From an uncultured Alphaproteobacteria bacterium (lineage in GTDB: Bacteria > Pseudomonadota > Alphaproteobacteria > HIMB59 > GCA-002718135): a stretch of 64,000 bases of DNA. The stretch covers positions 469,573-533,572 of the forward strand of contig CACIED010000001.1 in NCBI GenBank assembly GCA_902585605.1, written 5' to 3'. The notes below the pieces were generated by a model. The model was not told where the DNA came from, ran no database searches, and saw only the letters and a list, made by a program, of their open reading frames with translations. The translations under genes and the position numbers were made by a program. How positions within the stretch are numbered: the stretch's first letter is position 1; each line of letters starts with the position of its first letter. Below are positions 35,350 through 49,822 of the stretch, piece after piece.

Positions 35350-38091
35350 ATGAGCAAATTACAAAAATTAATACTTGTTGATGGTTCAGCTTATATATTT
35401 AGAGCTTACTATGGTTTACCTCCTATGAACAGATCAGATGGTACACCTATTAATGCAGTTTTTGGATTTACCAATATGCTTGTTAAACTTATAGAAGATT
35501 ATAGCAACGATAGAATGATAATAATTTTTGATGCCGCTAGGGAAAACTTTAGAAATAAAATTTATTCAGAATATAAAGCTAATAGAGGTGAAGCACCAGA
35601 CGATTTAATTCCACAATTTCCATTAATAAGAGATTGTGTAAAAAGCTTTAATATACCACAGCTAGAAATAGAAGGATATGAAGCAGATGATTTAATTGCA
35701 ACGTATGTTAATCTGGCAAAAAAAGATGATATTGAGACTATTATAGTATCCTCTGACAAAGATTTAATGCAGCTTGTGAGTAAAAAGGTGACAATGCTTG
35801 ATCCAATGAAAAACAAAAAAATTGAAATTAAAGATGTTGAGGAAAAATTTGGAGTCAAACCCGATAAAGTCATTTTTATTCAAGCTCTAACAGGTGATAA
35901 AGTAGATAACATCCCAGGTGCTCCAGGTATAGGCCCTAAGACAGCATCTCAATTAATAAATGAATATAATGATATTGATGGATTACTAAAAAATGTTGAT
36001 AAAATTAAACAAGAAAAAAGAAGAAACGTTTTAAGAGAGGCAGAAAAGGATATAAGAATAAGCTTAGAGCTAGTAACGCTAAAAAATGATGTCAAGATAC
36101 CTAAGAGCATTGATAAAATAAGAACTTATAATGAATTAAAAAATGAAAATAATAATATCTTTGATTTTCTTAAAGAGCAGGGCTTTAGATCAACATCTGA
36201 AAGATTAAAATCTAATTCTTTTATATCTGGTGATAATGATAACATCGTTCAAAAAAAACAAATACAGCCAAAGTATCAATTAATTAATTCAAAGAATAAT
36301 TTTGAAAAAGTTTTAAAAGAAATTGAAAAAAATGGCATTTGCGCCATTGATACTGAGACAAACTCACTTAATATAGAAAAAGCTAAATTAGTTGGTATAT
36401 CAATTTGTTGCAGTGAAAGTACTTCTTATTATATTCCTATAAACCATACTACTTTAGATGGTTCTAAAAAAATTGATAATCAGTTAGAGGAAAAATATGT
36501 AATTAATCATATTAAAAAAATATGTGAAAATGAATCGATCTTAAAAATTGGGCAAAACATAAAATATGATATTAGAATCTTAAATAAGTATGGAGTAATT
36601 TTTAATTCAATTGCAGACACTATGTTGCTTTCCTATTCAATTGATAATGGAATTTTTAAACACAATTTAGATGATCTATCATTTAATCATTTAAATCATA
36701 CAACAATTAAATATAAGGAAGTCGTTGGAACAGGGAAAAATGAAATCACTTTTGATAAAGTAACCATTGATAAGGCAATTAATTATGCTGCAGAAGATTC
36801 TCTATTAACATTCAGGCTTTTTCATCATCTCTATCCTCGTTCAGTAAAAGAAAAGACTAATTTTGTTTATCGAAACATCGATTTACCTCTTATAGAGGTA
36901 TTATCTTCAATCGAAGCAAATGGCATTGAGGTAAATAAAGTGTTTTTAACAAATCTAAGTTATGAATTTGAAAATGAAAGTAAAAAACTTGAAAAGAATA
37001 TTTACAAACTTTCAAAGAAAGAGTTCAATATTGGCTCACCAAAGCAATTAGGAGAGATATTATTTATTAATCTTAAAATACCTGGTGGAAAAAAAACAAA
37101 ATCAGGCACTTATTCTACTGATTCTTCAACTTTAAATAATTTAGCTTCAGAGGGATTTGAAATTGCTAAACTTGTTCTTGATTGGAGAGAGTTAACAAAG
37201 CTTAAATCAACATATACAGATGCTTTATTTAGATTAACAGATGGTAAAAGTAGAGTTCATACATCATTTGGTTTAGCTAATACACTAACTGGACGATTAA
37301 GCTCTACAGATCCTAATCTTCAAAATATTCCAATTAGAACTGAAAATGGCAAAAAAATAAGAACAGCATTTATTAGTGGAAAAGGAAAAAAACTAGTTAG
37401 TTTCGATTATTCACAAATAGAACTAAGATTGGCTGCAGAAATTTCAGGAGATAAAAATTTTATCAAAGCATTTAACAATAATGAAGACATTCATGCAGCA
37501 ACGGCTAAGGAAATATTTAGTTTGAAAGATAGTCAAATTAATAATGATTACAGAAGAAAAGCAAAAGCAATTAATTTTGGGATTCTATATGGCATTAGTC
37601 CATATGGTTTGGCAAAGCAACTTGATATTTCAAACACAGAAGCAAAAGATTACATAAATGAGTATTTTAATAAATATCCAAATATAAAAAAATACATGGA
37701 CCATCAAATCGATTTTGCAAAAACAAACCAATATGTTGAAACAATTTTTAAAAGAAAAATTAATATAAAAGGGATTACAGATAAGAATTTTGCTGTAAGA
37801 GGTTTCGCTGAAAGACAAGCTATTAATGCGCCAATACAAGGTAGTGCGGCTGATATTATTAAGTTAGCAATGATTGAAATTCATAAAGAAATAAAACTTA
37901 AAAACATTGAGGCAGAAATGCTTTTACAAGTACACGACGAACTGATTTTCGAAGTTGAAAGTAAAAAATATGATAATTTAGTAAGTAATGTAAAAACAAT
38001 TATGGAGTCAGTGCATTTAAAGTACAAAAATTTTTCAGTTCCATTAACCGTTGATTATGGAGCTGGTGATAATTGGGGTCAGGCACATTAA
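35350..38091 (+). CDS. polA: DNA polymerase I
   Basis: 5'-3' exonuclease N-domain, 3'-5' exonuclease (AIDTETNSL), and polymerase motifs A (DYSQIELR), B (RRKAKAINFGILYG) and C (QVHDEL). 913 aa. Confidence 0.97.
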   Translation: MSKLQKLILVDGSAYIFRAYYGLPPMNRSDGTPINAVFGFTNMLVKLIEDYSNDRMIIIFDAARENFRNKIYSEYKANRGEAPDDLIPQFPLIRDCVKSFNIPQLEIEGYEADDLIATYVNLAKKDDIETIIVSSDKDLMQLVSKKVTMLDPMKNKKIEIKDVEEKFGVKPDKVIFIQALTGDKVDNIPGAPGIGPKTASQLINEYNDIDGLLKNVDKIKQEKRRNVLREAEKDIRISLELVTLKNDVKIPKSIDKIRTYNELKNENNNIFDFLKEQGFRSTSERLKSNSFISGDNDNIVQKKQIQPKYQLINSKNNFEKVLKEIEKNGICAIDTETNSLNIEKAKLVGISICCSESTSYYIPINHTTLDGSKKIDNQLEEKYVINHIKKICENESILKIGQNIKYDIRILNKYGVIFNSIADTMLLSYSIDNGIFKHNLDDLSFNHLNHTTIKYKEVVGTGKNEITFDKVTIDKAINYAAEDSLLTFRLFHHLYPRSVKEKTNFVYRNIDLPLIEVLSSIEANGIEVNKVFLTNLSYEFENESKKLEKNIYKLSKKEFNIGSPKQLGEILFINLKIPGGKKTKSGTYSTDSSTLNNLASEGFEIAKLVLDWRELTKLKSTYTDALFRLTDGKSRVHTSFGLANTLTGRLSSTDPNLQNIPIRTENGKKIRTAFISGKGKKLVSFDYSQIELRLAAEISGDKNFIKAFNNNEDIHAATAKEIFSLKDSQINNDYRRKAKAINFGILYGISPYGLAKQLDISNTEAKDYINEYFNKYPNIKKYMDHQIDFAKTNQYVETIFKRKINIKGITDKNFAVRGFAERQAINAPIQGSAADIIKLAMIEIHKEIKLKNIEAEMLLQVHDELIFEVESKKYDNLVSNVKTIMESVHLKYKNFSVPLTVDYGAGDNWGQAH

Positions 38092-38100
38092 ATCTAATTT

Positions 38101-38229
38101 ATGCAAGTTAAAAAAAAAATTAAGAAAAAAAATCCCTATGCCCAAGATCTAAAATTACCTAAGTATAAACAAAGAATTGTTATGAGTAAAAGAACGTATA
38201 CGAGGAAGGGAAACAAAAAGTTTATTTAG
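38101..38229 (+). CDS. unlisted small ORF, 42 aa, 16 Lys/Arg; ArfA-like (alternative ribosome-rescue factor) motif
   Basis: Own translation: MQVKKKIKKKNPYAQDLKLPKYKQRIVMSKRTYTRKGNKKFI*. It fills the polA-grx spacer. The N-x8-P-x-[FY]-[KR]-Q-R-[IV] ... [ST]-Y-x-R-K-G pattern resembles the ArfA core. No search was run. Confidence 0.35.
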   Translation: MQVKKKIKKKNPYAQDLKLPKYKQRIVMSKRTYTRKGNKKFI

Positions 38230-38465
38230 AATTCTTCATCAAAGGTATTCACTTCAAACCATTTTTCAAGCTCATGATATCCTCCAATTTTTTCACCATT
38301 TAAAATTATTTGAGGAAAGGTTTTTGCGTTCGGAAACTTTTCAAAAAAATCTTCTCTCGTATAATCTGTATCAAGCATATAAATCTTTGGATTATATTTA
38401 GCTAACCTTAGTTTAGCTCTGTCACAGTATCCACAATTAGTTTTAGAATATATCTCTGCTTCCAT
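38226..38465 (-). CDS. glutaredoxin (RNR-associated, Grx1/NrdH-like role)
   Basis: CGYC active site and TFPQIILNGEKIGGY (Grx GSH-site-like). Last gene of the nrdA-nrdB-grx operon. The ATG at 38465-38463 shares one nt with the nrdB TGA (TGATG). The ORF track begins one codon earlier at TTG 38468. Confidence 0.8.
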   Translation of the reverse strand: MEAEIYSKTNCGYCDRAKLRLAKYNPKIYMLDTDYTREDFFEKFPNAKTFPQIILNGEKIGGYHELEKWFEVNTFDEEF

Positions 38466-39454
38466 CAAAATGCTTCATCAAAACTTAAAGCTCTATCTGT
38501 AGGTCTTTGATACTCAGATACTCTTTTTTCAAAAAAGTTTGTTACGTTTTGAACATCCAATGCTCTCATAAAATCAAAAGGATTCTCTGTTTTAAAGACT
38601 CTGTCAAATTCAAATAGATCAGCAATTCTGTCTGCAACAGCTTCGATATACTGACACATTAAATCAGCATTCATACCAATTAAATCTACTGGTAGTGCAT
38701 CTTTCACAAATTCTTTTTCAAAAGCTACTGCTTCTCTAACAATTTCTTCAAATTGTGATTGAGGTACGTCTGAAGGAATTAGAGATAAATCACTAATATC
38801 AGCATCAGTTAATGTTTTATTATTAAACTTATCTCTTAAAGTTCTAAACATTAATGATGAGAAGCTAAAGTGCATTCCTTCATCTCTTGCAATCCAATCA
38901 TTAGATAAGGCTAAACCAGGCAGTAAACCTCTTTTTCTAAAATAATATATTGCACAGAAAGAGCCTGCAAAAAATAAACCTTCAACTAATCCAAATCCTA
39001 TTAGTCTTGTTAATAAATTTTGACTACCATTGAGCCATTTTGATACCCATTTTGCTTTATGGTTAATACATGGTACGTTTTGTATTGCATCAAAAAGCAT
39101 ATCCTTTTCTTTTGTATCTTTTACATAAGCCTCAATTTGAAGACCATACATCTCTGCATGAATTGATTCATTCAACATTTGCATGGATATGAAACATCTC
39201 GCTTCAGGAATTAAAATTTCTTTGTAGAACCTACTAGCTAGGTTTTCGTTAATCATTGCTTCGGAGTTAGCAAAATATGCAAGTACGTGCTTAATAAAAT
39301 GCTTTTCACCATCATTTAAAGTTTCAAGATCTCTTAAATCATCCTGCAATGATACTTCTTCGGTTGTCCAAAAGGCTTGTATATGTTGTTTGTATCTATC
39401 CCAAATTTCTTGGTTTTTTATTGGAAATATTGATTTAACGCCTTTTGATATCAT
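38465..39454 (-). CDS. nrdB: class Ia ribonucleotide reductase beta subunit (eukaryote-like R2)
   Basis: Di-iron ligand segments (NESIHAEMY, EGLFFAGSF, RDEGMHFSF). C-terminal tail ...LSFDEAF is like eukaryotic ...DADF tails. Confidence 0.95.
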   Translation of the reverse strand: MISKGVKSIFPIKNQEIWDRYKQHIQAFWTTEEVSLQDDLRDLETLNDGEKHFIKHVLAYFANSEAMINENLASRFYKEILIPEARCFISMQMLNESIHAEMYGLQIEAYVKDTKEKDMLFDAIQNVPCINHKAKWVSKWLNGSQNLLTRLIGFGLVEGLFFAGSFCAIYYFRKRGLLPGLALSNDWIARDEGMHFSFSSLMFRTLRDKFNNKTLTDADISDLSLIPSDVPQSQFEEIVREAVAFEKEFVKDALPVDLIGMNADLMCQYIEAVADRIADLFEFDRVFKTENPFDFMRALDVQNVTNFFEKRVSEYQRPTDRALSFDEAF

Positions 39455-39468
39455 TCTTTACTCCTTCT

Positions 39469-42222
39469 TTATGCACTGCAAGTTTCGCAGTCTTCTGGTT
39501 CATTGTTTTGATTAATAGCAGTATTTATATAAGCATCCTTTGCTGCTTTTTCTGATGAAACTGTAACTTTTACAGCATCAACTGCTGATCTACTTCTTAG
39601 ATAATACATTCCTGTTTTAAGACCTTTTTTCCAAGCATACATATGCATTGAATTAACTTTTCCAAATGTAGGTGTTGAAAGCCAAAGATTCATTGATTGG
39701 GTTTGATCAATAAATGGTGCTCTATCTGCTGACATATCAATTACAGTTTTTTGTGATACTTCCCAAACTGTTTTATAAACCTCTTTAAGTTCTGTTGGAA
39801 TTTCATTTATGTTTTCTACCGATCCATTTTCTAAAATTATTTTGTCTCTCATTTCTTTATTCCACAATCCTCTTTGAGAAAGTTCATTCACTAAATATCG
39901 ATTTACCAGTAGGAACTCACCTGAGAGTGTTTGTCGTTTATATATATTAGAGGTTTGGATTTGGAATGTTTCAGTATTACCTAATATAATACCTGTTGAC
40001 GCAGTTGGCATGCAAGCTGTGGTTAAAGAGTTTCTTATACCGTGCTCTTTAATCTTAGCCCTAAGTGAATCCCAATCCCATTTTGAAGATGGGTTAACAT
40101 TCCAAAGATCAAATTGAAATTTACCTTCAGAAATCGGTGAATTTTTAAATGTTTCGTAGGCTCCTTTTTCTTTTGCTAATTCACATGAAGCTTCTAAAGC
40201 TCCAAAGTAAATTGTTTCAAAAATTAATTTATTTATTTCTTTAGCTTCTTCAGATTCATAAGCTATTCCTAACTTGAAGTAGACATCTGCAAGCCCCTGT
40301 ATCCCTAAACCTATAGGCCTATGCTTATTATTAGATCTTTCCGTTTTATCAGTTGGATAAAAATTAATATCAATTACTTCATCCAAGTTTTTAGTAGCTA
40401 ATTTTGCAGTTTCGTAAAGAGCATCATAGTCATATATTAATTTTTTATCTGTTTTTTTTACAAATTTTGGCAGAGCTATAGAAGCCAAGTTACATACAGA
40501 TGTCTCGTTCTTATCAGAGTATTCAACTATTTCTGCACAAAGGTTTGAAGATTTAATGACACCAATATTTTTTTGGTTAGACTTATTATTGATAGAGTCT
40601 TTATAAAGCATATAGGGTTGTCCTGTTTCTATCTGCGCTTCTATGATTTTAGACATTAAATCTCTTGCTTTAATTTTTTCTAAATGCTTCATTTCATTTT
40701 CATACTTTGTGTAAAGTTTTTCAAAATCGTCACCATATACATCTGAAAGGCCTGGACATTCATGTTCACTCATAAGTGTCCATTCTTCATCGTTTTCTAC
40801 TCTCTTCATGAATAAATCTGGTATCCATAAAGCGTAGAACAAATCTCTAGCTCTAAATTCTTCAGCACCTGTATTTTTTCTAAGTTCTAGAAATTTCTCA
40901 ATGTCAGCGTGCCAAGGTTCTAAGTATACTGCAAAAGAACCTTTTCTTTTACCCCCACCTTGATCAACTGATTTAGCAGTTTCATTAAAAATTTTCAAAA
41001 ATGGTATGAGGCCATTAGATTTGCCATTTGTTGATTTTATTCTGCTTCCACTACCTCTAATGTTGTGAGCGTGCATTCCAATGCCGCCTGCAGTTTTAGA
41101 TATTAGTGCACAATCTTTAATAGTATTAAAAATACCTTCGATAGAATCATCTTCCATACCTATTAAAAAGCATGATGATAATTGCTGCATCTTTAATCCA
41201 CTATTAAACAATGTTGGAGTAGCATGCGTATACATACCAGTTGATAAACTTTTATAAGTTTCTTTTATTTTATCTAAGTTAAACTCACTACCGCTAACTG
41301 TTAAAGTTACTCTCATCCAAAGGTCTTGAGGTCTTTCAATTGTTTTATTATCAAACTTTAATAAATATGCTCTTATTAGTGTTGTGAGAGCAAAATAATC
41401 AAAAGTATAGTCTTTATCATAGTCAATTATAGACTCTATTAAATCTGCATTCTCCATCACCTTTTTATAATATTCTTCTCTTAACAATCCATCATCGTAT
41501 AAATTTTTTGTTGCTATGATAAAACCTGGAGTTTCTTTATGAAGTGAGTTTACTTTTATTCTTGCTGCAAGATAAGAATAATCAGGATGTTCAACTGTTA
41601 AAGCTGCAGCAGTTTCAGCAAGATAAGTATCAATTTCAACGGAACTAATATCACTATATAAGCCTGGAACAGCTTTTTGAACAACAACAATTGGATCAAT
41701 ATTTAAGCCAGTAGATAGAACAGAGACCCTATTGGTTATTTTATCCAGCGAAATTGGCTCTTTACTTCCATCTCTTTTAGTTACCATCATAGAAGAAGCT
41801 TTTTCTCCAACTTGTTCTTTTAGTTTTTTAGTGTGATATCTTGAAGCCGCTCTTTGTTCTCTATACAAAACATATGCTCTAGCAACTTTATGATGTTCAT
41901 CCCTCATAAGCGCTAACTCCACTTGATCTTGTATATCCTCAATGTGAATCATGTCACCGTCAGCAATTCTTCTAGTTAGAGCTGAGACAACTTTATGTGT
42001 TAATGCTTCAACAGTTTTATGAATTCCATCTTGTTGTTCTTTTTCCTTATTTTTATCATTTCTAATTTTAGTTTGTGCTAAGAATGCTTTTTTTATAGCA
42101 TTTGAAATTTTATCTGATTTGAAGGGAGTGATAGCCCCGTCACGACGTACGACACTTAATGTTAAAATATTTACACTTTTTTCTTCTGGGATTTTTGCTG
42201 ATACCTGTAGATTGTCTGCCAT
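39469..42222 (-). CDS. nrdA: class Ia ribonucleotide reductase alpha subunit with two N-terminal ATP-cones
   Basis: Two ATP-cone repeats (VVRRDGAITPFKSDKISNAI...; MVTKRDGSKEPISLDKITNRV...). Active-site NLCAEI. C-terminal redox pair CETCSA. 917 aa. Confidence 0.97.
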   Translation of the reverse strand: MADNLQVSAKIPEEKSVNILTLSVVRRDGAITPFKSDKISNAIKKAFLAQTKIRNDKNKEKEQQDGIHKTVEALTHKVVSALTRRIADGDMIHIEDIQDQVELALMRDEHHKVARAYVLYREQRAASRYHTKKLKEQVGEKASSMMVTKRDGSKEPISLDKITNRVSVLSTGLNIDPIVVVQKAVPGLYSDISSVEIDTYLAETAAALTVEHPDYSYLAARIKVNSLHKETPGFIIATKNLYDDGLLREEYYKKVMENADLIESIIDYDKDYTFDYFALTTLIRAYLLKFDNKTIERPQDLWMRVTLTVSGSEFNLDKIKETYKSLSTGMYTHATPTLFNSGLKMQQLSSCFLIGMEDDSIEGIFNTIKDCALISKTAGGIGMHAHNIRGSGSRIKSTNGKSNGLIPFLKIFNETAKSVDQGGGKRKGSFAVYLEPWHADIEKFLELRKNTGAEEFRARDLFYALWIPDLFMKRVENDEEWTLMSEHECPGLSDVYGDDFEKLYTKYENEMKHLEKIKARDLMSKIIEAQIETGQPYMLYKDSINNKSNQKNIGVIKSSNLCAEIVEYSDKNETSVCNLASIALPKFVKKTDKKLIYDYDALYETAKLATKNLDEVIDINFYPTDKTERSNNKHRPIGLGIQGLADVYFKLGIAYESEEAKEINKLIFETIYFGALEASCELAKEKGAYETFKNSPISEGKFQFDLWNVNPSSKWDWDSLRAKIKEHGIRNSLTTACMPTASTGIILGNTETFQIQTSNIYKRQTLSGEFLLVNRYLVNELSQRGLWNKEMRDKIILENGSVENINEIPTELKEVYKTVWEVSQKTVIDMSADRAPFIDQTQSMNLWLSTPTFGKVNSMHMYAWKKGLKTGMYYLRSRSAVDAVKVTVSSEKAAKDAYINTAINQNNEPEDCETCSA

Positions 42223-49501: not shown

Positions 49502-49822
49502 ATGTCTACTCTTAAAACAAACGATCAAACTTTTGATAAAGATATATCTACTAATGACGTTCCAGTGGTAGTTGATTTTGGTGCAGAATGGTGTGGTCCA
49601 TGTAAAGTACTTGATCCAATTTTAGAGGAAATTGCTAGTGAAAATAAAGATAAGGTTAAAATATACAAAATGAACATTGACGAGAACCCTATGACACCAC
49701 AAAAATACGGTATTAGGGGTATTCCTACAATAATGATTTTTAAAAATGGTGAGTTAATCGATACTAAGGTCGGTAGTCTTCCTAAAACAGCATTAGAGAC
49801 CTGGATACATTCCAATTTATAA
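49502..49822 (+). CDS. trxA: thioredoxin
   Basis: WCGPCK active site, 106 aa, GIRGIPT cis-Pro loop. Confidence 0.95.
   Translation: MSTLKTNDQTFDKDISTNDVPVVVDFGAEWCGPCKVLDPILEEIASENKDKVKIYKMNIDENPMTPQKYGIRGIPTIMIFKNGELIDTKVGSLPKTALETWIHSNL

What the first reader, a model, noticed from the sequence alone, without database searches (positions are those of the whole stretch)
38229..38482. Operon-encoded glutaredoxin ends in FDEEF, copying the NrdB C-terminal tail FDEAF
**What the sequence shows.**
- NrdB ends ...RALSFDEAF* (last five codons at 38468-38482).
- The next gene is a CGYC glutaredoxin coupled to nrdB by TGATG. It ends ...FEVNTFDEEF* (38229-38243).

**Established knowledge.** In class Ia RNRs the extreme C-terminal peptide of beta, for example the eukaryotic ...FTLDADF, is the element that docks into alpha.

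**Inference.**
- A reductant carrying the same F-D-E-x-F terminus suggests tail mimicry. The Grx could be recruited to, or compete for, the beta-tail site on NrdA.
- That would place the Grx next to the NrdA C-terminal redox pair (CETCSA).
- Grx domains fused to NrdB have been described. I am not aware of a described free Grx with a beta-like tail.
Basis: partly seen in the sequence, partly recalled or inferred. Interest (0 to 1): 0.55.

Follow-up and report, generated by a model that had tools for sequence, protein, structure and literature searches.

The report
Glutaredoxin carrying the RNR beta-subunit tail
A small electron-donor protein (glutaredoxin) encoded right after the ribonucleotide reductase genes of this SAR11 bacterium ends in a conserved floppy peptide that copies the tail by which the reductase's small subunit docks on its large subunit; marine phages show the same copying with a different tail, which suggests an undescribed way of bringing the reductant to the enzyme.

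Summary
NrdB (38468-39454, minus strand) ends ..RALSFDEAF. A 79-residue CGYC glutaredoxin (38229-38465) starts in a TGATG overlap and ends ..EVNTFDEEF.

- **Chance is unlikely.** Of 1776 ORFs of 60 aa or more in this genome, only these two end in F[DE][DE]xF.
- **The tail is free.** It lies outside the predicted fold and has low model confidence.
- **It is under selection.** The terminal Phe is kept in 86 of 86 distinct coding sequences, using both Phe codons. The tail persists in relatives about 50% identical that have a different active site (CPNC).
- **Position is constant.** In all 80 related genome loci the gene directly follows nrdB.
- **The tail tracks the local NrdB tail.** Examples: NrdB ..SFNEEF with Grx ..AFNSEEEF, and NrdB ..KFEEDF with Grx ..DFQDDF. 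In phages, NrdB ..TFKGFSL or ..KGLSL goes with Grx ..GTG[HYW][TS]L, ..ELSL or ..ELTL.
- **Controls.** Housekeeping Grx3 proteins lack such tails. So do SAR11-like Grx copies on phage contigs whose NrdB tail differs.
- **The pocket is intact.** All eight residues of the yeast R1 pocket that holds the Asp-Phe-COO- end of R2 are identical in this NrdA.

Best reading (about 0.6): the tail tethers the reductant to the beta-tail site on NrdA. Binding is untested. I found no paper describing this. The scan noted the same thing earlier in two other genomes.

The parts
39469..42222 (-). nrdA: class Ia RNR alpha subunit, eukaryote-like, 917 aa, with two ATP-cone stretches. It ends ..EPEDCETCSA.
   Evidence: The closest solved relatives are human RRM1 and yeast Rnr1 (E about 1e-277).
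39472..39489 (-). NrdA C-terminal redox pair, CETCSA (CxxC shuttle).
   Evidence: Conserved as C[EL]TCSA in 80 related loci.
39637..39756 (-). NrdA residues 823-862. This helix region carries the counterpart of yeast Rnr1 P-site subsite 2: S823, Q824, K825, I828, K855, S858, M859, Y862.
   Evidence: The yeast residues are named in PMC3483043. The alignment is and the letters were checked. All 8 are identical.
40642..40800 (-). NrdA residues 475-527. This is the N-terminal part of the counterpart of P-site subsite 1: V475 and E476 are kept, and R520, M523 and I527 replace yeast Q386, W389 and L393.
38465..39454 (-). nrdB: class Ia RNR beta subunit, 329 aa.
   Evidence: The closest solved relatives are mouse and human R2.
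38468..38491 (-). NrdB C-terminal docking tail, ALSFDEAF.
   Evidence: It reads RALSFD[ED][AT]F in 80 related loci.
38226..38465 (-). grx: 79-aa dithiol glutaredoxin (CGYC, TFPQ, GG), translationally coupled to nrdB by a TGATG overlap.
   Evidence: The AF2 model has mean pLDDT 88.4 and a Trx/Grx fold over residues 1-72.
38229..38249 (-). Grx C-terminal tail, NTFDEEF (residues 73-79). It is the beta-tail look-alike, lies outside the fold, and is predicted to be unstructured.
   Evidence: residues 76-79 have pLDDT below 50; N73 and F79 invariant, E77 in 82 of 86.

Best explanation
The gene after nrdB encodes the dedicated reductant of this eukaryote-like class Ia ribonucleotide reductase.

- **Tail.** Its last seven residues (NTFDEEF) form a free, flexible peptide that imitates the C-terminal docking peptide of NrdB (LSFDEAF).
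- **Docking (inferred).** The tail inserts its acidic-Phe-carboxylate end into the beta-tail site (P-site, subsite 2) on NrdA.
- **Reduction (inferred).** This tethers the CGYC active site next to the mobile CETCSA tail of NrdA, which it re-reduces after each turnover. It acts either on alpha protomers not engaged by beta at that moment, or in alternation with beta.
- **Stoichiometry.** Translational coupling to nrdB keeps Grx and beta in step.

Shown here: the tail, its conservation, its position outside the fold, its match to the cognate NrdB tail in several lineages, and the intact pocket on NrdA.

Inferred: binding, and the consequence for turnover.
For: 1. **Uniqueness.** Only NrdB and the Grx, out of 1776 ORFs, end in F[DE][DE].F.
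2. **Synteny.** In 80 of 80 SAR11 genome loci the Grx directly follows nrdB.
3. **Selection.** The terminal F is kept in 86 of 86 distinct coding sequences, with TTC 61 times and TTT 25 times. N73 is invariant and E77 is present in 82 of 86. Of 120 database homologues, 110 are full-length and end in F or Y.
4. **Persistence.** The tail survives in relatives about 50% identical that have a CPNC active site. All of these sit after an nrdB ending ..AFDE[AVSQ]F.
5. **Covariation inside Alphaproteobacteria**:
   - NrdB ..SFNEEF with Grx ..AFNSEEEF.
   - NrdB ..KFEEDF with Grx ..DFQDDF.
   - NrdB ..SFDESF with Grx ..NKPD[DE][DN]F.
6. **A different tail class in phages**:
   - NrdB ..DTFKGFSL with an overlapping Grx ending ..ETGYNGTG[HYW][TS]L.
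   - NrdB ..SFEGLSL with Grx ..MGELSL.
   - NrdB ..TLKGLSL with Grx ..SKELTL.
   - NrdB ..LKGMSL with Grx ..LGSLSL.
   - The ..L[ST]L cases were predicted before the look-up (note).
7. **Cluster statistics.** In 7 of 11 clusters (60% identity) of nrdB-adjacent Grx, the anchored last-four BLOSUM62 score against the cognate NrdB is at least 6. Only 7.3% of background pairs reach that score.
8. **Controls.**
   - The 37 best Grx hits in the sampled Pseudomonadota genomes (36 distinct loci, mostly Grx3-like) have no co-oriented nrdB neighbour and no such tail.
   - Only 1 of 25 non-adjacent pairs in the same locus scores at least 6.
   - SAR11-like Grx on phage contigs (87% and 71% identical) have lost the tail where the phage NrdB tail differs.
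9. **Structure.** AF2 gives pLDDT above 90 for the fold up to residue 72. The tail is unstructured, and residues 76-79 are below 50.
[quoted passage not shown] The 'not strongly sequence specific' subsite 1 is identical at 3 of 9. This mirrors an invariant tail end and a variable upstream hydrophobic position.
Against: - No binding or multimer model could be run, so docking on NrdA is inferred from analogy with NrdB.
- A ligand of the beta-tail site would compete with beta. R2-tail peptides are known inhibitors (PMC3483043), so net stimulation is not guaranteed.
- Some phage Grx that overlap nrdB have no look-alike tail (L119, L126, L136, L140, L224). The tail is therefore not obligatory for an operon Grx.
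- The phage GTGxTL tail aligns with its NrdB tail only if three residues are inserted.
- The independent origins number perhaps three to five, and the clusters are related. The statistics therefore overstate independence.
- This Grx is the only dithiol Grx found in the genome, so it must also have general duties.
- No glutathione reductase scored above the family cut-off. How the Grx itself is reduced is unknown.
Confidence: 0.6

Rival explanations
1. The tail makes the Grx a regulator rather than a better reductant. It occupies the beta-tail site and so competes with NrdB and damps RNR activity, perhaps depending on redox state. It would act as a built-in equivalent of the R2-peptide inhibitors.
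For: Peptides copying the R2 C-terminus inhibit eukaryotic RNR competitively at the P-site (PMC3483043). The tail resembles such a peptide, and the pocket is conserved.
Against: - The protein keeps a complete dithiol Grx active site under strong conservation.
- It is co-translated with beta, which is an odd way to make an inhibitor.
- Phages, which need maximal dNTP supply, evolved the same arrangement.
Confidence: 0.15
2. NrdB and the Grx share the tail because both are recognised by a third partner that is not NrdA, for example a protease adaptor, a chaperone or a maturation factor.
For: C-terminal acidic-aromatic peptides serve as handles in other systems, for example the SSB tail (my own knowledge, not tested here). 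Nothing here shows directly that NrdA is the receptor.
Against: - The only established receptor of the beta tail is alpha.
- The tail end fits the conserved subsite 2 of NrdA.
- The tail class switches together with the RNR type in phages. It is lost when the Grx moves to a phage with a different RNR.
- No candidate third gene is conserved in the operon.
Confidence: 0.08
3. The resemblance has no function. It would be a relic of a duplication of the nrdB 3' end, or a by-product of composition.
For: The two DNA tails share 13 of 15 bases. The genome is AT-rich with a strong codon preference.
Against: - The pattern is unique in the genome.
- Purifying selection acts on it, with synonymous variation at the terminal Phe codon.
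- It persists at about 50% core identity.
- It recurs in a different tail class in phages.
- It is lost in transferred copies.
Confidence: 0.04

Closest known systems
Grx::NrdB fusion proteins (Facklamia ignava NrdB; Francisella spp.; vibriophages), PMC6187632
   Same: A glutaredoxin is physically attached to the class I RNR so that the reductant travels with the enzyme. The fused Grx was shown to be an efficient RNR reductant. Such fusions also turned up here (393-398 aa, L203-L214).
   Different: In the fusions the link is covalent, at the N-terminus of NrdB. Here the Grx is a separate 79-aa protein in another reading frame. The proposed link is non-covalent, through a copy of the beta C-terminal peptide. 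The paper does not mention tails on free Grx.
C-terminal docking peptide of class Ia R2/NrdB (mouse FTLDADF; yeast Rnr2 and Rnr4 peptides; E. coli NrdB tail) and its P-site on R1
   Same: A short disordered C-terminal peptide with a hydrophobic anchor, acidic residues and a terminal Phe (or Leu in the E. coli-like class) bearing a free carboxylate. The pocket residues for the Asp-Phe end are identical in this NrdA.
   Different: The peptide sits on a redoxin, not on the radical-generating subunit. It lacks the upstream radical-transfer tyrosine region of beta.
Operon-encoded RNR redoxins: NrdH (class Ib) and phage T4 NrdC glutaredoxin
   Same: A small Grx-fold dithiol protein encoded with or for the RNR genes and acting as its hydrogen donor.
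   Different: - NrdH has a C[VM]QC site and a WSGFRP motif and goes with nrdEF (my own knowledge). This protein has CGYC, no such motif, and goes with a eukaryote-like class Ia enzyme.
- The cyanophage nrdC-type Grx found here are not next to nrdB and end ..ELEKLHG, without a beta-like tail.
E. coli Grx3 / Grx1 (closest solved sequences 1FOV, 3GRX, 1EGO)
   Same: The same fold and active-site layout (E 1e-6 to 1e-4).
   Different: Housekeeping Grx3 ends in an extra helix (..GKLDxLL), has no beta-like tail, and is not linked to nrdB.

Membership tests
Glutaredoxin, dithiol class (Pfam PF00462) | Profile match above the curated cut-off | tested here: met
   35.6 bits against a cut-off of 22.9. 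Weak sub-threshold matches to Grx3, GrxA and eukaryotic Grx models.
Glutaredoxin, dithiol class (Pfam PF00462) | CxxC at the start of helix 1, a cis-Pro motif T[VF]P, and a GG motif before the last helix, on a Trx fold | tested here: met
   The sequence has CGYC at 11-14, TFPQ at 49-52 and GG at 61-62. The AF2 model has a beta-alpha-beta-alpha-beta-beta-alpha order with pLDDT above 90.
Glutaredoxin, dithiol class (Pfam PF00462) | Reduced by glutathione | not testable with these tools
   gshB is present. No glutathione reductase scored above the family cut-off in a genome that is 91.7% complete.
NrdH-redoxin | C[VM]QC active site, WSGFRP motif, and linkage to class Ib nrdEF (features recalled from my own knowledge) | tested here: not met
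   The active site is CGYC and there is no WSGFRP motif. The neighbours are a eukaryote-like class Ia NrdA and NrdB.
Grx::NrdB fusion (PMC6187632) | Grx domain in the same polypeptide as NrdB | tested here: not met
   The ORF is separate and lies downstream of nrdB in another frame, with a TGATG overlap.
Beta-subunit-type P-site ligand (R2 C-terminal docking peptide) | Free C-terminal acidic-x-Phe (or [ST]-Leu) end with an upstream hydrophobic anchor, matching the cognate NrdB | tested here: met
   NTFDEEF against LSFDEAF. The match to the cognate tail holds in several lineages.
Beta-subunit-type P-site ligand (R2 C-terminal docking peptide) | Peptide is disordered and outside the folded domain | tested here: met
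   Residues 73-79 have no secondary structure, and residues 76-79 have pLDDT below 50.
Beta-subunit-type P-site ligand (R2 C-terminal docking peptide) | Binds the groove on alpha and competes with the beta tail | not testable with these tools
   Only single-chain folding is offered. The pocket residues are conserved, which permits binding but does not show it.

The most novel reading that the evidence does not exclude
Beta-tail mimicry is a general, repeatedly evolved way of recruiting accessory proteins to class I RNR. A free reductant carries a copy of whatever tail the local beta subunit uses. It thereby time-shares, or fills spare, beta-tail sites on alpha, for example the extra sites in higher alpha oligomers. 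This would couple re-reduction to subunit exchange in SAR11 and in many marine phages.
Probability: 0.45. Interest if true: 0.85.

Novelty: new variant of a known kind. Interest (0 to 1): 0.72.

Why it matters
How thioredoxins and glutaredoxins find the mobile C-terminal cysteine pair of class I RNR is poorly defined. No docking site for the reductant on alpha is established.

A reductant that carries the beta-subunit tail would point to a concrete site. It would also imply that re-reduction and beta binding are coordinated or alternate, and it offers simple experiments: tail deletion, peptide competition and tail swaps.

It occurs in SAR11, the most abundant marine bacteria, where very low protein copy numbers could make tethering valuable. 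It also occurs in many marine phages that depend on fast dNTP supply.

The beta-tail site is a drug target in eukaryotic RNR. A natural protein ligand of a nearly identical pocket is therefore of wider interest.

Tried and rejected
The exact contexts of several divergent-tailed Grx (P0148, P0146, P0268, P0244) could not be fetched. I used scans of viral and metagenome contigs and whole-genome searches instead.
- **P0254-type Grx (..NYGQGDF).** Its viral records hold no PF00268 match (the records are 2-67% complete). The prediction for that tail could not be confirmed.
- **P0146.** No identical locus was found. Its 50-55% relatives have other tails.
- **Variovorax phage V45v66 and Caulobacter phage Cr30.** Their Grx are not adjacent to nrdB and have no look-alike tail.
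- **Recent DNA duplication as the source of the tail.** Rejected, because the shared bases are the preferred codons and the tail is old and conserved.
- **Multimer modelling.** Not possible. Only single chains of the window's own proteins can be folded, and I did not try to get round that.
- **Literature.** Five full-text searches found no description of a beta-like tail on a free redoxin. The library lacks most subscription journals, so this is not proof of absence.
- One search printed a binomial for 8 of 11 clusters. The correct count is 7 of 11. By hand this still gives roughly 4e-6 if the clusters were independent, which they are not. With a conservative three independent origins among seven lineages, the chance figure is about 0.01.

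Full report
**1. Observation**

The minus strand of the window carries three genes in a row:
- nrdA (39469-42222, 917 aa, ending ..EPEDCETCSA);
- nrdB (38465-39454, 329 aa, ending ..RALSFDEAF);
- a 79-aa ORF (38226-38465) whose ATG shares the A of the nrdB TGA. It has CGYC at residues 11-14 and ends ..WFEVNTFDEEF.

Pfam calls the three proteins Ribonuc_red_lgC/lgN with an ATP-cone, Ribonuc_red_sm, and Glutaredoxin (35.6 bits against a cut-off of 22.9). NCBIfam agrees. Record titles of near-identical loci name Pelagibacteraceae and SAR11 single-cell genomes.

**2. Is it chance?**

In the window's own genome (1.46 Mb, 33 contigs) I listed 1776 ATG-started ORFs of at least 60 aa. Only NrdB and the Grx end in F[DE][DE].F, or even in [hydrophobic][DE][DE].[hydrophobic]. 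Only one further ORF ends in [DE][DE].F. Two neighbouring, translationally coupled genes sharing a genome-unique C-terminus is not a composition effect.

**3. What the protein is**

- The AF2 model (20-sequence alignment, mean pLDDT 88.4) is a normal glutaredoxin fold with pLDDT above 90 up to the last helix (63-72). Residues 73-79 have no secondary structure, and residues 76-79 fall below pLDDT 50. The tail is therefore a free peptide.
- The closest solved sequences are E. coli Grx3 and Grx1.
- The genome's only other PF00462 match is a CGFS monothiol Grx. This is therefore the only dithiol Grx found.
- gshB is present.
- No glutathione reductase scored above its family cut-off.
- Thioredoxins exist, one of them in the window.

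**4. Conservation**

- Of 120 database homologues at 67-96% identity, 110 are full-length and end in F or Y. Two tail forms occur..NSF[DEN]E[DE]F and ..AFNxP[DN]E[DN]F.
- In 80 of 80 related genome loci the Grx directly follows nrdB. NrdB ends RALSFD[ED][AT]F and NrdA ends C[EL]TCSA.
- Across 86 distinct 79-codon coding sequences, the terminal Phe is invariant while its codon varies (TTC 61, TTT 25). N73 is invariant and E77 is present in 82 of 86. This is purifying selection on a disordered tail.
- A metagenome scan with a divergent relative found ten loci with a CPNC active site, about 50% identical. All sit right after an nrdB ending ..AFDE[AVSQ]F, and all have Grx tails of the same two forms.

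**5. Covariation with the cognate NrdB tail**

An even sample of 401 Alphaproteobacteria genomes gave six with the nrdB-linked, tail-bearing Grx, in three families. The pairs were:

| NrdB tail | Grx tail |
|---|---|
| ..SFDEAF | ..TFDEEF |
| ..SFDESF | ..NKPD[DE][DN]F |
| ..SFNEEF | ..AFNSEEEF |
| ..KFEEDF | ..DFQDDF |

The two other hits at that threshold were ordinary Grx with no nrdB nearby.

Viral contigs gave a natural experiment. Many phage RNR operons of the E. coli-like tail class (NrdB ..DTFKGFSL) have a Grx overlapping nrdB by ATGA, and that Grx ends ..ETGYNGTG[HYW][TS]L.

Other phage pairs follow the same rule:

| NrdB tail | Grx tail |
|---|---|
| ..SFEGLSL | ..MGELSL |
| ..TLKGLSL | ..SKELTL |
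| ..LKGMSL | ..LGSLSL |

- I had written the ..L[ST]L prediction down before looking (note). It was met for the one protein whose exact locus could be found (P0226 = L223) and for two further lineages.
- These three Grx are only 36-42% identical to each other and to the GTGxTL group.
- A tail-less Grx (L140) is 68% identical to a tailed one. Tails have therefore been gained or lost several times.

**6. Statistics**

- Grouping nrdB-adjacent Grx cores at 60% identity gives 11 clusters. In 7 of them the mean BLOSUM62 score of the last four residues against the cognate NrdB is at least 6.
- Only 7.3% of pairs between background Grx and these NrdB tails reach that score. Only 1 of 25 non-adjacent same-locus pairs does.
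- All 65 distinct Grx next to an F-ending NrdB end in F. Of 23 next to an L-ending NrdB, 13 end in L and 3 in I.
- The clusters are related. A conservative count is three to five independent origins, which puts the chance figure near 0.01 rather than 1e-6.

**7. Controls**

- The 37 best Grx hits from an even sample of Pseudomonadota (36 distinct loci, mostly Grx3-like) end in the usual ..GKLDxLL helix. None has a co-oriented nrdB beside it; one locus has an nrdB on the opposite strand.
- Cyanophage nrdC-type Grx are not next to nrdB and have no such tail.
- Two groups of phage contigs carry Grx that are 87% and 71% identical to the SAR11 protein, so probably host-derived. There the phage NrdB ends ..GTWDDAF or ..VFDDAE, and the SAR11 tail has been replaced or cut off (L083, L085). 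This is what tail-to-RNR specificity predicts.
- Counter-examples exist. Five phage Grx lineages that abut nrdB have no look-alike tail (L119, L126, L136, L140, L224).

**8. The receptor**

NrdA and NrdB are very close to eukaryotic R1 and R2 (human RRM1 and yeast Rnr1 at E about 1e-277; mouse R2 at 6e-91).

For yeast Rnr1 a review lists the residues that hold the R2 heptapeptide (PMC3483043):
- Subsite 2 is S691, Q692, K693, I696, K723, S726, M727 and Y730. [quoted passage not shown]
- Subsite 1 is V342, E343, Q386, W389, L393, M721, G722, T725 and F729. [quoted passage not shown]

In the alignment (letters checked):
- All eight subsite-2 residues are identical in the window's NrdA: S823, Q824, K825, I828, K855, S858, M859 and Y862.
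- Three of nine subsite-1 residues are identical, and most of the others are hydrophobic exchanges.

This matches the tails. The [DEN]-F-COO- end is invariant in both NrdB and the Grx. The upstream hydrophobic residue may sit at position -5 or -8.

**9. Mechanism**

Established knowledge:
- The beta tail docks on alpha.
- The alpha C-terminal CxxC shuttles electrons to the active site.
- That pair is re-reduced by Trx, Grx or NrdH (PMC6187632, PMC4078304).

Inference: the Grx tail uses the beta-tail site to hold the CGYC centre near the CETCSA tail. This raises the local concentration of reductant in a cell with very few protein copies. It would work on alpha protomers whose site is free, or in alternation with beta.

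The main rival is that occupation of the site damps activity, as R2 peptides do.

**10. Known or new**

- Grx fused to NrdB is described and functional (PMC6187632). [quoted passage not shown]
- Five full-text searches found nothing on a beta-like tail on a free redoxin.
- Earlier notes of this scan reported the same feature in two other genomes, with the same reading. My tests were made independently and agree.
- I rate it a new variant of a known kind: an RNR-dedicated redoxin with a new, non-covalent mode of attachment.

Noticed in passing
L083/L084 and L085-L098, L105 (viral contigs): Phage contigs carry Grx that are 87% and 65-72% identical to the SAR11 Grx, so probably taken from the host. 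The beta-like tail has been replaced (..DKFIIKQENNNEGHTTRSG) or cut short (..ELDGLSF, ..DLNDLSV). Their own NrdB ends ..GTWDDAF or ..NVFDDAE. The second of these ends in Glu, which is unusual for a beta tail.
   Followed up: partly
L224-L230 (viral contigs): A phage Grx lineage right after nrdB (..DTFSGMSL) ends ..YLKGSE[AE]C. It has a C-terminal cysteine instead of a beta-like tail. The meaning is unknown.
   Followed up: no
L132, L142, L152 (viral contigs): These Grx have the phage-type tail stem but end ..NTGYNGTG[YH]GH instead of ..TL. No nrdB lies within the fetched flanks, and no PF00268 match was found in the one record searched (a 36-kb fragment).
   Followed up: partly
L219/L220 (viral contigs; P0254 cluster, contigs up to about 155 kb): This Grx ends ..NLGLGNYGQGDF, and P0244 is similar (..GGYGQGAF). 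The tail is Gly-rich and aromatic and has no nrdB in the records held. It may imitate the tail of some other partner.
   Followed up: partly
L203-L214 (viral contigs): Grx::NrdB fusion proteins of 393-398 aa ending ..GSW[NGS][DE]VY. This is the described fusion type.
   Followed up: no
window 39469-42222 (-): NrdA has two ATP-cone stretches (Pfam reports two, the best at residues 23-125). That is one more N-terminal cone than the aligned eukaryotic R1, whose alignment starts at residue 145.
   Followed up: no
window about 49508-49810 (+) (= G000:C1:519080-519382): A canonical thioredoxin gene (PF00085, 110 bits) lies about 11 kb from the RNR operon. It is an alternative RNR reductant in the same genome.
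   Followed up: no
G000:C14:14399-14593 (-) (L001): The only other glutaredoxin-family gene in the genome is a CGFS monothiol Grx. The nrdB-linked protein is therefore the sole dithiol Grx found. No glutathione reductase scored above its family cut-off, and the best hit (273 bits against 606) may be another flavoprotein disulfide reductase.
   Followed up: partly
window 35350-38091 (+): polA (913 aa) converges on the end of grx, with about 135 nt between the two stop codons.
   Followed up: no
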